Assembly (NCBI RefSeq): GCF_048403405.1
Contig: NZ_CP183129.1
Reading direction: 5' to 3' (one strand)
From: Escherichia coli
GTDB lineage: Bacteria; Pseudomonadota; Gammaproteobacteria; Enterobacterales; Enterobacteriaceae
DNA length: 64,000 nucleotides
The translations under genes and the position numbers were made by a program. The notes under the pieces were generated by a model. The model searched no databases, was not told the DNA's origin, and saw nothing but the letters and a program-made list of their open reading frames with translations. Within the stretch, counting starts at the first letter, position 1. Every line of letters begins with the position of its first letter. Positions 2,854-56,050 of the stretch are shown piece by piece.

Positions 2854-3249
<396 letters not shown>

Positions 3250-43655: not shown

Positions 43656-45757
<2,102 letters not shown>

Positions 45758-45922
45758 TTAGTTAATTCTCTGTGTCGTGCGCGTCCCAGCTTGAAAAAAC
45801 GTAATAATAGTGAAAGGTTTACTCATAAATGAGCGGCATTTTGCGTAAACCTGCGCCAGTTGGCAACTTATTACAGCCATTGGCGGCACGCGTTGCTAAT
45901 TCGCGATGGTGATTTTATTTCC

Positions 45923-45938
45923 ACGCAAACGGTTTCGT
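45923..45938. promoter_or_regulatory. PurR box (ACGCAAACGGTTTCGT) upstream of purL
   Basis: 16-bp near-palindrome matching the PurR operator consensus about 80 bp upstream of the purL start. Confidence 0.65.
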
Positions 45939-46014
45939 CAGCGCATCAGATTCTTTATAATGACGCCCGTTTCCCCCCCTTGGGTACACCGAAAGCTTAG
46001 AAGACGAGAGACTT

Positions 46015-49000
46015 ATGATGGAAATTCTGCGTGGTTCGCCTGCATTGTCGGCATTCCGAATCAACAAACTGCTGGCACGTTTTCAGGCTGCCAGGCTCCC
46101 GGTTCACACTATTTACGCCGAGTATGTCCATTTTGCTGACCTCAATGCGCCGTTAAACGATGATGAGCACGCACAACTTGAACGCCTGCTGAAATATGGC
46201 CCGGCACTCGCCAGCCACGCCCCGCAAGGCAAACTCCTGCTGGTGACCCCGCGTCCTGGCACCATCTCTCCCTGGTCTTCGAAAGCGACCGATATTGCCC
46301 ATAACTGCGGGCTGCAACAGGTAAACCGTCTTGAGCGCGGCGTGGCTTACTATATAGAAGCCGGTACGCTGACCAATGAACAATGGCAGCAGGTTACCGC
46401 TGAACTGCACGACCGCATGATGGAAACGGTCTTTTTTGCTTTAGATGATGCAGAGCAGCTGTTTGCACACCATCAACCGACTCCGGTCACCAGCGTTGAT
46501 TTGCTGGGGTTGGGCCGTCAGGCGCTAATCGACGCTAACCTGCGTCTTGGCCTGGCACTGGCGGAAGATGAAATTGACTATTTGCAGGATGCTTTCACAA
46601 AGCTTGGTCGTAACCCGAACGACATCGAACTGTATATGTTTGCCCAGGCGAACTCCGAGCACTGCCGCCACAAAATTTTTAACGCCGACTGGGTTATCGA
46701 TGGTGAACAGCAGCCGAAATCGCTGTTTAAGATGATCAAAAACACCTTCGAAACTACGCCGGATCACGTTCTCTCTGCTTATAAAGATAACGCCGCCGTC
46801 ATGGAAGGGTCTGAAGTGGGCCGCTACTTTGCTGACCACGAAACGGGCCGCTACGATTTCCATCAGGAACCGGCGCATATTCTGATGAAAGTTGAAACCC
46901 ACAACCACCCGACGGCGATTTCTCCGTGGCCGGGCGCGGCGACCGGTTCCGGCGGTGAAATCCGCGATGAAGGTGCCACCGGACGCGGCGCGAAGCCGAA
47001 AGCTGGTTTGGTTGGTTTCTCCGTTTCCAACCTGCGAATTCCTGGCTTCGAACAGCCGTGGGAAGAAGATTTCGGTAAGCCTGAGCGCATTGTCACCGCG
47101 CTGGACATCATGACCGAAGGCCCGCTGGGTGGCGCGGCATTTAACAACGAATTTGGTCGTCCGGCACTGAACGGCTACTTCCGTACTTATGAAGAAAAAG
47201 TGAACAGCCACAATGGCGAAGAGCTGCGCGGTTATCACAAACCGATCATGCTGGCGGGCGGGATCGGCAACATTCGTGCCGATCACGTACAAAAAGGCGA
47301 GATCAACGTTGGTGCGAAGCTGGTCGTTCTCGGCGGCCCGGCAATGAACATCGGTCTTGGCGGCGGCGCGGCGTCTTCCATGGCGTCTGGTCAGTCTGAT
47401 GCCGACCTCGACTTCGCTTCCGTACAGCGCGACAACCCGGAGATGGAGCGTCGCTGCCAGGAAGTGATCGACCGTTGCTGGCAGCTTGGTGATGCCAACC
47501 CAATCCTGTTTATCCACGACGTTGGCGCAGGCGGTCTTTCTAACGCCATGCCGGAACTGGTGAGCGACGGCGGGCGCGGCGGTAAATTCGAACTGCGCGA
47601 TATCCTGAGCGACGAACCGGGCATGAGCCCGCTGGAAATCTGGTGTAACGAATCCCAGGAACGCTACGTGCTGGCGGTTGCTGCCGATCAGTTACCGCTG
47701 TTTGACGAACTGTGTAAGCGTGAGCGCGCGCCATACGCGGTGATTGGTGAAGCGACCGAAGAACTGCATCTTTCTTTGCACGATCGTCATTTTGATAATC
47801 AGCCGATCGATCTGCCGCTGGACGTCCTGCTTGGTAAAACGCCGAAGATGACCCGCGAAGTACAAACGCTGAAAGCGAAGGGTGATGCGCTGGTTCGTGA
47901 AGGGATTACCATTGCTGACGCGGTGAAACGCGTGCTGCACCTGCCGACCGTGGCGGAGAAAACTTTCCTGGTGACCATTGGTGACCGCAGCGTAACCGGC
48001 ATGGTAGCGCGCGATCAGATGGTGGGTCCGTGGCAGGTGCCGGTCGCTAACTGCGCGGTCACTACCGCCAGCCTCGATAGCTACTACGGCGAAGCGATGG
48101 CGATTGGCGAGCGTGCGCCGGTTGCGCTGCTGGATTTCGCCGCCTCTGCCCGTCTGGCGGTCGGTGAAGCGTTAACCAATATTGCCGCAACACAGATTGG
48201 CGATATCAAACGCATTAAACTTTCCGCCAACTGGATGGCGGCGGCAGGCCACCCTGGTGAAGATGCGGGCCTGTATGAAGCCGTTAAAGCTGTGGGCGAA
48301 GAACTTTGTCCGGCGCTGGGCCTGACGATCCCGGTGGGTAAAGACTCTATGTCGATGAAAACCCGCTGGCAGGAAGGTAACGAAGAGCGCGAAATGACGT
48401 CGCCGCTGTCGCTGGTGATTTCTGCATTTGCCCGCGTGGAAGATGTGCGTCACACCATCACGCCGCAGCTTTCTACCGAAGATAACGCATTACTGCTGAT
48501 TGAACTGGGCAAAGGCAATAACGCGCTGGGCGCAACGGCGCTGGCGCAGGTTTATCGTCAGCTTGGCGACAAACCGGCAGATGTACGCGATGTCGCGCAA
48601 CTGAAAGGTTTCTATGACGCGGTTCAGGCGCTGGTAGCACAGTGTAAGCTGCTCGCGTACCACGACCGCTCTGATGGCGGCCTGCTGGTAACGCTGGCGG
48701 AAATGGCCTTTGCTGGTCATTGCGGCATTGACGCGGATATCGCCACTCTGGGTGACGATCGCCTGGCGGCGTTGTTTAACGAAGAACTGGGTGCGGTGAT
48801 TCAGGTTCGTGCCGCTGACCGTGAAGCAGTTGAAGCGGTACTGGCACAGCATGGGCTTGCGGATTGCGTCCATTATGTTGGGCAGGCGGTTTCCGGTGAC
48901 CGTTTTGTGATTACCGCCAACGGGCAGACTGTATTCAGCGAAAGCCGCACCACGTTGCGTGTCTGGTGGGCAGAAACTACCTGGCAGATGCAGCGCCTGC

Positions 49001-49902
49001 GTGACAACCCGGAGTGTGCCGACCAGGAGCACCAGGCGAAATCAAACGACGCCGATCCGGGCCTGAATGTAAAACTGTCGTTCGATATCAACGAAGATGT
49101 GGCAGCACCGTATATTGCCACTGGCGCACGTCCGAAAGTTGCTGTGCTGCGTGAGCAGGGCGTGAACTCGCATGTTGAAATGGCGGCAGCTTTCCACCGT
49201 GCAGGCTTCGATGCTATCGACGTGCATATGAGCGACCTGCTGGCTGGACGCACGGGCCTGGAGGATTTCCACGCCCTGGTCGCGTGCGGTGGTTTCTCCT
49301 ACGGTGATGTGCTGGGTGCCGGTGAAGGTTGGGCGAAGTCTATCCTGTTCAATGACCGTGTACGCGATGAGTTTGCAACCTTCTTCCATCGTCCGCAAAC
49401 GCTGGCGCTGGGGGTATGTAACGGTTGCCAGATGATGTCTAACCTGCGCGAACTGATCCCAGGTAGTGAGTTGTGGCCACGTTTTGTGCGTAACACCTCC
49501 GATCGCTTTGAAGCGCGTTTCAGCCTGGTTGAAGTGACCCAAAGCCCGTCACTGCTATTGCAGGGGATGGTGGGCTCGCAAATGCCGATTGCTGTGTCTC
49601 ACGGTGAAGGGCGTGTGGAAGTGCGTGATGCGGCGCATCTGGCGGCACTGGAAAGCAAAGGGCTGGTGGCACTGCGCTATGTCGATAACTTCGGCAAAGT
49701 CACTGAAACCTACCCGGCTAACCCGAACGGTTCTCCGAACGGTATTACGGCGGTCACGACTGAAAGTGGTCGAGTCACCATTATGATGCCGCACCCGGAA
49801 CGTGTTTTCCGTACTGTCAGCAACTCCTGGCATCCGGAAAACTGGGGCGAGGATGGGCCGTGGATGCGTATTTTCCGCAATGCACGTAAGCAGTTGGGGT
49901 AA
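46015..49902 (+). CDS. purL: Phosphoribosylformylglycinamidine synthase (large single-chain form), 1295 aa
   Basis: ORF 46015..49902; translation; C-terminal glutamine amidotransferase GVCNGCQM motif. Confidence 0.96.
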
Positions 49903-52764: not shown

Positions 52765-54088
52765 ACCTGCGCATTTATTATTGGTCGATGACGATCCGGG
52801 ATTGCTGAAACTGCTTGGCCTGCGCCTGATCAGCGAAGGCTACAGTGTGGTCACGGCGGAAAGTGGCGCTGAAGGATTACGGGTACTGAATCGCGAAAAA
52901 GTAGATTTAGTTATCAGCGACCTGCGGATGGATGAAATGGACGGTATGCAGCTGTTTGCTGAAATTCAGAAAGTGCAGCCTGGAATGCCAGTAATTATTC
53001 TTACCGCGCATGGTTCTATTCCCGATGCCGTTGCTGCAACACAGCAGGGAGTGTTCAGTTTCCTCACCAAGCCTGTCGATAAAGACGCGCTATATCAGGC
53101 AATTGACGATGCGCTGGAACAATCCGCGCCAGCCACCGATGAACGCTGGCGCGAGGCGATTGTCACCCGCAGCCCGCTGATGCTGCGTTTGCTGGAACAG
53201 GCGCGGCTGGTGGCGCAATCAGACGTCAGCGTTTTGATTAATGGCCAGAGCGGCACCGGGAAAGAGATTTTCGCCCAGGCTATCCACAACGCCAGCCCGC
53301 GTAACAGCAAGCCGTTTATTGCTATTAACTGTGGTGCATTGCCCGAGCAATTGCTGGAGTCGGAACTGTTTGGTCATGCGCGTGGCGCGTTTACTGGCGC
53401 TGTCAGCAATCGCGAAGGTTTATTCCAGGCGGCGGAAGGCGGTACGCTATTTCTCGATGAGATTGGCGATATGCCCGCACCGTTGCAGGTTAAACTGCTG
53501 CGCGTGTTGCAGGAGCGTAAAGTGCGCCCGCTGGGCAGTAACCGCGATATTGATATCGACGTGCGGATTATTTCTGCCACTCACCGCGACCTGCCAAAAG
53601 CGATGGCGCGCGGGGAATTCCGCGAAGATCTCTATTACCGCCTCAACGTTGTCAGCCTGAAAATTCCGGCACTGGCGGAGCGTACAGAAGACATTCCGCT
53701 ACTGGCAAATCACCTGTTGCGCCAGGCGGCAGAGCGACATAAACCGTTTGTCCGCGCGTTCTCCACCGATGCGATGAAACGCCTGATGACCGCGAGCTGG
53801 CCGGGTAATGTGCGCCAGTTGGTCAACGTGATTGAACAGTGCGTGGCGCTGACCTCATCTCCGGTGATTAGCGATGCATTAGTAGAGCAGGCGCTGGAGG
53901 GCGAAAACACGGCGCTGCCAACCTTTGTTGAAGCACGTAATCAGTTTGAACTCAACTATTTGCGTAAGCTGCTGCAAATCACCAAAGGCAACGTCACCCA
54001 CGCGGCGAGAATGGCGGGGCGCAACCGGACAGAATTTTATAAACTGCTTTCCCGACACGAGCTGGATGCAAACGATTTCAAGGAATGA
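52754..54088 (+). CDS. glrR: Sigma-54 dependent response regulator GlrR (QseF), 444 aa
   Basis: ORF track 52652..54088; start moved to ATG 52754 ([16 protein letters not shown]), overlapping yfhG by 11 nt; receiver domain, AAA+ GESGTGKE and C-terminal HTH. Confidence 0.92.
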
Positions 54089-55772: not shown

Positions 55773-56050
55773 ATAAAAAATAGCCCTGCAATGTAAATGG
55801 TTCTTTGGTGTTTTTCAGAAAGAATGTGATGAAGTGAAAAATTTGCATCACAAACCTGAAAAGAAATCCGTTTCCGGTTGCAAGCTCTTTATTCTCCAAA
55901 GCCTTGCGCAGCCTGAAGGTAATCGTTTGCGTAAATTCCTTTGTCAAGACCTGTTATCGCACAATGATTCGGTTATACTGTTCGCCGTTGTCCAACAGGA
56001 CCGCCTATAAAGGCCAAAAATTTTATTGTTAGCTGAGTCAGGAGATGCGG

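What the first reader, a model, noticed from the sequence alone, without database searches (positions are those of the whole stretch)
45923..45938. PurR operator upstream of purL
ACGCAAACGGTTTCGT matches the 16-bp PurR box consensus upstream of purL, consistent with purine-repressor control.
Basis: partly seen in the sequence, partly recalled or inferred. Interest (0 to 1): 0.2.

Follow-up and report, generated by a model that had tools for sequence, protein, structure and literature searches.

The report
Known PurR operator at purL promoter

Summary
The observation and the interpretation both hold, and the site is textbook knowledge. The window is E. coli chromosome (mltF | purL ... glnB, hmpA, glyA). 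ACGCAAACGGTTTCGT lies exactly at 45923..45938, 77 bp before the purL ATG at 46015. Its reverse complement, ACGAAACCGTTTGCGT, is the motif that Cho et al. 2011 (PMC3159470, Table 1) list for the purL PurR-binding region in their ChIP-chip data, where binding was seen only with adenine.

A weight matrix built from 26 other published PurR sites ranks it first in the 64-kb window at 21.7 bits. About 0.01 such hits are expected by chance.

I compared purL upstream regions from 80 species. The box is present in 31 of 32 Enterobacterales, 5 of 5 Pasteurellales and 11 of 12 Vibrionales, the three orders reported to have PurR. It is absent in 31 of 31 other gammaproteobacteria.

In an alignment of 23 Enterobacterales species, column identity is 0.98 for the box and about 0.5 for the upstream flank. 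The box sits a fixed 17 bp before an invariant TATAAT (45956..45961), so it covers the -35 position. The inferred mechanism is that PurR bound to hypoxanthine or guanine occludes RNA polymerase. The transcription start was not verified.

Novelty: already known. Interest: low.

The parts
45923..45938 (.). PurR operator (PUR box), a 16-bp imperfect palindrome: ACGCAAACGGTTTCGT on +, ACGAAACCGTTTGCGT on -. Central CG at 45930-45931.
   Evidence: Sequence. PWM 21.7 bits, top of the window. Identical to the purL motif in Cho 2011 Table 1. Column identity 0.98 across 23 Enterobacterales species.
45933..45938 (+). Position of the -35 hexamer of the purL promoter (TTTCGT, a weak match to TTGACA). It lies wholly inside the right half of the operator.
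   Evidence: Inferred from the fixed, ungapped 17-bp spacing to the invariant TATAAT in alignment A1. The tool's promoter scan did not call it because the -35 match is below its threshold.
45956..45961 (+). -10 hexamer TATAAT of the purL promoter (inferred).
   Evidence: Perfect consensus. Column identity 0.99 across 23 Enterobacterales species, always 17 bp after the box.
45962..45978 (+). Conserved G+C-rich discriminator and initial transcribed region (GACGCCCGTTTCCCCCC). The likely transcription start is near 45968-45970, which is inferred and not verified.
   Evidence: Column identity 0.80 against 0.50 for the upstream flank. No Rfam match.
45999..46010 (+). Conserved ribosome-binding region GAAGACGAGAGA before the purL start codon.
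   Evidence: Column identity 0.87.
46015..49902 (+). purL, phosphoribosylformylglycinamidine synthase (1295 aa), the regulated gene.
   Evidence: ORF. NCBIfam NF003672 at 2268 bits and TIGR01735 at 2053 bits. RefSeq annotation.

Best explanation
This is the operator of the E. coli purL promoter for the LacI-family purine repressor PurR. When purines are plentiful, a PurR dimer carrying its corepressor (hypoxanthine or guanine) binds the 16-bp imperfect palindrome. The palindrome covers the -35 position of the promoter and lies 17 bp upstream of the TATAAT -10 hexamer. Bound PurR should therefore keep RNA polymerase from the promoter and lower purL transcription. When purines are scarce, PurR without corepressor leaves the site and purL is transcribed. 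Shown here or in retrieved papers: the sequence, its match to the PurR motif, in vivo adenine-dependent PurR occupancy of this region, and deep conservation restricted to the orders that have PurR. Inferred: the exact transcription start, and promoter occlusion as the mode of repression.
For: Exact sequence at the stated coordinates. The window is E. coli and the downstream gene is purL. K-12 MG1655 carries the same 16-mer at NC_000913.3 2,695,620-635. Cho et al. 2011 Table 1 lists a purL PurR ChIP-chip region with the motif ACGAAACCGTTTGCGT, the exact reverse complement. They saw binding only with exogenous adenine, and they call purL one of the previously characterised PurR promoters. The same paper states that PurR sites generally lie between the -35 and -10 elements and act on initiation. 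The leave-out PWM gives 21.7 bits, the top of the window, with 0.01 expected per 64 kb. In 80 purL loci from different species, the box (>=15 bits) is present upstream of purL in 31/32 Enterobacterales, 5/5 Pasteurellales and 11/12 Vibrionales, and in 0/31 other gammaproteobacteria. Ravcheev et al. 2014 report PurR orthologues only in those three orders. The phylogenetic footprint shows box identity 0.98, -10 identity 0.99, spacer 0.65 and upstream flank 0.50, with a fixed ungapped 17-bp spacing. The 51-bp core is 100% identical in 5402 of 5426 complete E. coli genomes.
Against: Nothing argues against the identification. Three limits apply. The original in vitro binding and promoter-mapping paper (He et al. 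1990) is not held in the library and could not be read. The transcription start site is inferred from the conserved -10, not taken from data. The tool's sigma-70 scan did not call the + strand promoter because its -35 is weak.
Confidence: 0.97

Rival explanations
1. The conserved block is only a core promoter element (-35 and upstream contacts for RNA polymerase), and its likeness to a PurR box is coincidental.
For: The box sits exactly where a -35 element should be, at a fixed 17 bp from an invariant TATAAT. Promoter elements are also conserved.
Against: The overlapped hexamer TTTCGT matches TTGACA at only 2 of 6 positions, yet all 16 bp are conserved, including the left half that lies outside the -35 position. 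The PWM score has a chance expectation of 0.01 per window. ChIP-chip shows adenine-dependent PurR occupancy. The box occurs only in the orders that have PurR, although purL and sigma-70 promoters exist in all 80 species.
Confidence: 0.01
2. The site is mainly the target of another LacI-family repressor with a near-identical motif, such as the PurR paralogue RbsR, rather than of PurR.
For: Ravcheev et al. 2014 state that PurR arose by duplication of RbsR and retained its DNA motif, so cross-recognition is conceivable.
Against: ChIP was done for PurR itself, and occupancy responded to adenine, not ribose. The gene is a purine-biosynthesis gene. The box follows the taxonomic range of PurR, whereas RbsR is reported more widely (Pseudomonadales and beta-proteobacteria). 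Cross-binding by RbsR would add to PurR control, not replace it.
Confidence: 0.02
3. The operator also, or instead, controls the divergently transcribed mltF.
For: A minus-strand promoter-like site (CTGACG-18-TAAAAT, 45941..45912) overlaps the box. The box lies 166 bp upstream of the mltF start codon (45757).
Against: That hit is a 9-of-12 consensus match, and its -10 part is conserved only among close relatives. A second, better conserved minus-strand candidate at 45866..45838 lies beyond the box, closer to mltF. Cho et al. assign the binding region to purL only. mltF has no known link to purine metabolism.
Confidence: 0.04

Closest known systems
E. coli K-12 purL PurR operator (PUR box), as listed in Cho et al. 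2011 Table 1 (PMC3159470) and attributed to He et al. 1990 and Meng et al. 1990
   Same: It is the same object. The 16-mer, the gene and the intergenic position are identical, and the spacing to the glyA site (9,994 bp) is the same.
   Different: Nothing differs. The window is simply in the opposite orientation to the MG1655 coordinates.
Other promoter-proximal PurR operators of the pur regulon (purF, purMN, purHD, purEK, purC, purT)
   Same: They share the 16-bp imperfect palindrome ACGNAAACGTTTGCNT with a central CG, a location in the -35/-10 region, and repression of initiation.
   Different: The purL box has C instead of A at position 7 of the consensus when read on the minus strand. In ChIP-chip it was occupied only with added adenine, whereas purC, purMN, purEK and purT were also occupied without it.
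Intragenic PurR operators of purB and purR (roadblock type)
   Same: Same protein and same motif.
   Different: Those sites lie inside the coding region and block elongation. The purL site lies upstream of the -10 hexamer, so it should act on initiation.
LacI/GalR-family operators in general (for example RbsR, the closest paralogue)
   Same: A palindromic 16-bp site with a central CG, bound by a dimer. The RbsR motif is reported to be close to the PurR motif.
   Different: PurR binds DNA with its ligand (a corepressor), whereas most family members bind without ligand.

Membership tests
PurR (LacI-family purine repressor) operator / PUR box | 16-bp imperfect palindrome matching the PurR motif ACGNAAACGTTTGCNT | tested here: met
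   13 of 14 specified positions match. The leave-out PWM gives 21.7 bits, within the range of the 28 published sites (12.3 to 24.6 bits). It is the top hit in the window, with 0.01 expected per 64 kb.
PurR (LacI-family purine repressor) operator / PUR box | Central CG step at positions 8-9 of the palindrome. From general knowledge of the PurR-operator crystal structures, this is the step opened by the hinge helices. | tested here: met
   C45930-G45931. Invariant in all 23 aligned Enterobacterales species.
PurR (LacI-family purine repressor) operator / PUR box | Listed as PurR-occupied in published in vivo binding data | tested here: met
   This was a literature look-up, not an experiment. Cho 2011 Table 1 gives the purL region 2,693,490-2,693,714, log2 ratio 1.88 with adenine, motif ACGAAACCGTTTGCGT. 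The coordinates are consistent with K-12.
PurR (LacI-family purine repressor) operator / PUR box | Binding depends on the corepressor (hypoxanthine or guanine) | not testable with these tools
   Only indirect published support: occupancy at purL was seen only with exogenous adenine, which the authors interpret as a rise in hypoxanthine.
PurR (LacI-family purine repressor) operator / PUR box | Placed at the promoter of a purine or nucleotide-metabolism gene where binding can repress it | tested here: met
   The gene is purL. The box ends 17 bp before an invariant TATAAT and so covers the -35 position. The transcription start itself is inferred.
PurR (LacI-family purine repressor) operator / PUR box | Conserved upstream of orthologous genes in genomes that have PurR, and absent where PurR is absent | tested here: met
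   Present in 47 of 49 loci from Enterobacterales, Pasteurellales and Vibrionales; the two exceptions are a Nezara insect symbiont (L034) and Candidatus Enterovibrio escacola (L071). Present in 0 of 31 loci from other gammaproteobacteria. The PurR range is taken from Ravcheev 2014. I did not check for purR in each genome.
PurR (LacI-family purine repressor) operator / PUR box | The target gene is derepressed in a purR mutant | not testable with these tools
   Published only. Cho 2011 lists purL among the IMP-pathway genes repressed by PurR-hypoxanthine. The title of Meng et al. 1990 names purL.

The most novel reading that the evidence does not exclude
The least ordinary reading still open concerns the near-total invariance of all 16 bases across Enterobacterales, including the one non-consensus base. 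It could reflect a double constraint, with the same bases serving as PurR operator and as the -35/upstream contact of the purL promoter. It could also reflect a shared operator that weakly couples the divergent mltF (a cell-wall lytic transglycosylase) to purine supply. Neither would change the basic identification.
Probability: 0.08. Interest if true: 0.2.

Novelty: already known. Interest (0 to 1): 0.05.

Why it matters
It matters only as a positive control. The first-stage reader recognised a real, experimentally documented transcription-factor site from raw sequence, and simple tools recover it unambiguously: a leave-out weight matrix, a phylogenetic footprint and a literature look-up. Biologically it is one of the classical operators through which purine availability feeds back on de novo purine synthesis in enterobacteria. 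Nothing new is learned about that system here.

Tried and rejected
- The original binding and promoter-mapping paper (He et al. 1990, J Bacteriol 172:4555) is not held, either by DOI or by PMC id. The exact footprint and the mapped transcription start could therefore not be quoted.
- A full-text search for 'purL promoter' together with PurR found nothing. One search failed on syntax. The RegulonDB evidence paper mentions the PurR site table, but the table body is not in the text held.
- The sigma-70 scan did not call the purL promoter on the + strand, because its -35 is too weak for the tool's 4-of-6 rule. It gave only two minus-strand hits. I placed the promoter from the invariant TATAAT instead.
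- The consensus search with up to 3 mismatches is a weak statistic: 2 hits against 0.58 expected, and 11 of 100 shuffles reached 2. I replaced it with a PWM scan.
- Rfam found no RNA family in the intergenic region or the leader, so there is no sign of a riboswitch or leader RNA that would offer an alternative control element.
- The rivals (promoter element only, RbsR site, mltF operator) were considered and given low weight, as set out under the rival explanations.

Full report
**What is at the coordinates.** One search shows ACGCAAACGGTTTCGT exactly at window 45923..45938. It lies in a 257-bp intergenic region. On one side is a minus-strand ORF ending at 45757, and on the other a 1295-aa plus-strand ORF starting at 46015. 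The last base of the 16-mer is 77 bp upstream of that ATG.

**Where the window comes from.** A 401-bp stretch around the site is present in 5425 of 5426 complete E. coli genomes, always on the chromosome. RefSeq annotates the flanking genes as mltF and purL. The wider annotation gives mltF | purL, qseE, qseG, glrR, glnB, hmpA, glyA. NCBIfam confirms both genes: phosphoribosylformylglycinamidine synthase NF003672 at 2268 bits, and MltF NF008112 at 755 bits. K-12 MG1655 carries the same 16-mer at NC_000913.3 2,695,620-2,695,635, on the strand of purL.

**Is it more than chance?**
- The site differs from the perfect palindrome ACGCAAACGTTTGCGT at two positions. A 3-mismatch consensus search is a weak test: 2 hits against 0.58 expected, and 11 of 100 shuffles reached 2.
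- I therefore built a weight matrix from 26 PurR motifs in Table 1 of Cho et al. 2011, leaving out the two sites that lie in this window.
- The site scores 21.7 bits, the best 16-mer in the 64 kb on either strand. That is in the middle of the range of the published sites (12.3 to 24.6 bits).
- In 200 Markov simulations of the window, a score that high occurred 0.01 times per window.
- The second-best hit is 55917..55932, AGGTAATCGTTTGCGT, at 21.0 bits.

**Published evidence.**
- Cho et al. 2011 (PMC3159470) mapped PurR by ChIP-chip in K-12. Table 1 lists a binding region for purL (2,693,490-2,693,714, log2 ratio 1.88 with adenine, none without). Its motif is ACGAAACCGTTTGCGT at 2,693,642-657, the exact reverse complement of the 16-mer here.
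- The same table lists the glyA motif AGGTAATCGTTTGCGT at 2,683,648-663. The two motifs are 9,994 bp apart in the paper and 9,994 bp apart in the window (45923 and 55917). The identification does not rest on the 16 bases alone.
- The paper counts purL among the previously characterised PurR promoters and reports binding there only with exogenous adenine. The authors attribute this to formation of the PurR-hypoxanthine complex. It also lists purL among the IMP-pathway genes repressed by that complex.
- The RegulonDB evidence paper and a 2024 review cite He et al. 1990 and Meng et al. 1990 for PurR control of the pur genes. The title of Meng et al. names purL.
- I could not read He et al. 1990 itself.

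**Conservation.** I fetched purL loci from 80 species of the GTDB genome set with the N-terminal 300 residues of PurL. I then scanned the 400 bp before each start codon with the matrix.

| Group | Loci with a box of at least 15 bits | Typical box and position |
|---|---|---|
| Enterobacterales | 31 of 32 | Mostly the identical 16-mer, or G at position 1, 83-137 bp before the ATG |
| Pasteurellales | 5 of 5 | ACGCAAACGTTTTCGT (G at position 1 in L074) at about -80 |
| Vibrionales | 11 of 12 | ACGCAAACGGTTGCTT-like, mostly at -153 to -212 (-283 in L037) |
| Other gammaproteobacteria (Shewanella, Pseudoalteromonas, Rheinheimera, Idiomarina, Aeromonas and others) | 0 of 31 | Best score 12.3 bits |

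- The two exceptions are a Nezara insect symbiont (L034) and Candidatus Enterovibrio escacola (L071).
- Ravcheev et al. 2014 report PurR orthologues only in Enterobacteriales, Pasteurellales and Vibrionales. The box therefore follows the repressor. I did not check each genome for purR.
- In an alignment of 23 Enterobacterales species, column identities are 0.98 for the box, 0.50 for the upstream flank, 0.65 for the next 17 bp, and 0.99 for the following TATAAT.
- There are no gaps between the box and TATAAT in any species.
- Within E. coli, the 51-bp core (box, spacer and -10) is 100% identical in 5402 of 5426 complete genomes.

**How it most likely works.**
- The invariant TATAAT at 45956..45961 is a perfect -10 hexamer. 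A 17-bp spacer puts the -35 hexamer at 45933..45938 (TTTCGT, a weak match), entirely inside the right half of the box.
- With a start about 7 bp after the -10 (near 45969), the box would span roughly -46 to -31. This agrees with the statement in Cho et al. that PurR sites generally lie in the -35/-10 region and act on initiation, unlike the intragenic roadblock sites of purB and purR.
- The mechanism I commit to is this. A PurR dimer loaded with hypoxanthine or guanine occupies the palindrome and excludes RNA polymerase from the purL promoter. When purines are scarce, apo-PurR dissociates and purL is transcribed.
- Shown: the sequence match, in vivo adenine-dependent occupancy (published), and conservation restricted to the orders reported to have PurR.
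- Inferred: the exact transcription start, and occlusion as the mode of repression.
- The tool's promoter scan did not call this promoter because of the weak -35. No Rfam family matches the region, so nothing points to an RNA-based control element.

**Rivals.**
- A pure promoter element is unlikely. All 16 bp are conserved, not just the hexamer; the overlapped hexamer is a poor -35; and the box is missing in species that lack PurR.
- Primary control by the paralogue RbsR is conceivable from motif similarity. It is contradicted by PurR ChIP and the adenine response.
- Shared control of the divergent mltF cannot be excluded. A minus-strand promoter-like hit overlaps the box, but there is no positive support for it.

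**Verdict.** This is an already known, experimentally documented operator. Interest is low; its value is as a positive control for the scan.

Noticed in passing
window 55917..55932: AGGTAATCGTTTGCGT scores 21.0 bits, the second-best PurR hit in the window, and lies about 137 bp before the glyA start (about 56069). It is identical to the published glyA PurR motif in Cho 2011 Table 1.
   Followed up: yes
window 54066..54081 (minus strand): TTGAAATCGTTTGCAT scores 13.0 bits, the third-best PurR hit, and lies about 87 bp before the glnB start (about 54168). It may be the classical weak glnB PurR operator (He et al. 1993). Cho 2011 say their ChIP-chip missed that site.
   Followed up: partly
window 45962..45978: The stretch right after the purL -10, GACGCCCGTTTCCCCCC, is strongly conserved across Enterobacterales (column identity 0.80, consensus CGCCCGTTTTCCCCC). 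It has no Rfam match. It could be a G+C-rich discriminator or initial transcribed sequence with a regulatory role of its own. Its function was not determined.
   Followed up: partly
window 45838..45866 and 45912..45941 (minus strand): There are two promoter-like sites facing mltF. TTGCCA-17-CAAAAT (45866..45838) has a GCAAC core that is nearly invariant across Enterobacterales and is probably the mltF promoter. CTGACG-18-TAAAAT (45941..45912) overlaps the PurR box.
   Followed up: partly
L036, L048, L060, L072, L076, L081 at 3018..3033: In 6 of the 11 box-bearing Vibrionaceae loci, a second PurR-like box of 17 to 21 bits lies inside the purL coding region. An example is AAGCAAACGTTTCCCT, at codons about 174-179, encoding EANVSL. 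E. coli has DANLRL there and no box. This is either a by-product of the coding sequence or a purB-like intragenic operator.
   Followed up: partly
L034 (Pantoea sp. Nvir, Nezara symbiont) and L071 (Candidatus Enterovibrio escacola): These are the only two loci from PurR-bearing orders with no PurR box upstream of purL. Loss of regulation in a reduced symbiont genome would explain it. I did not check whether purR is present.
   Followed up: no
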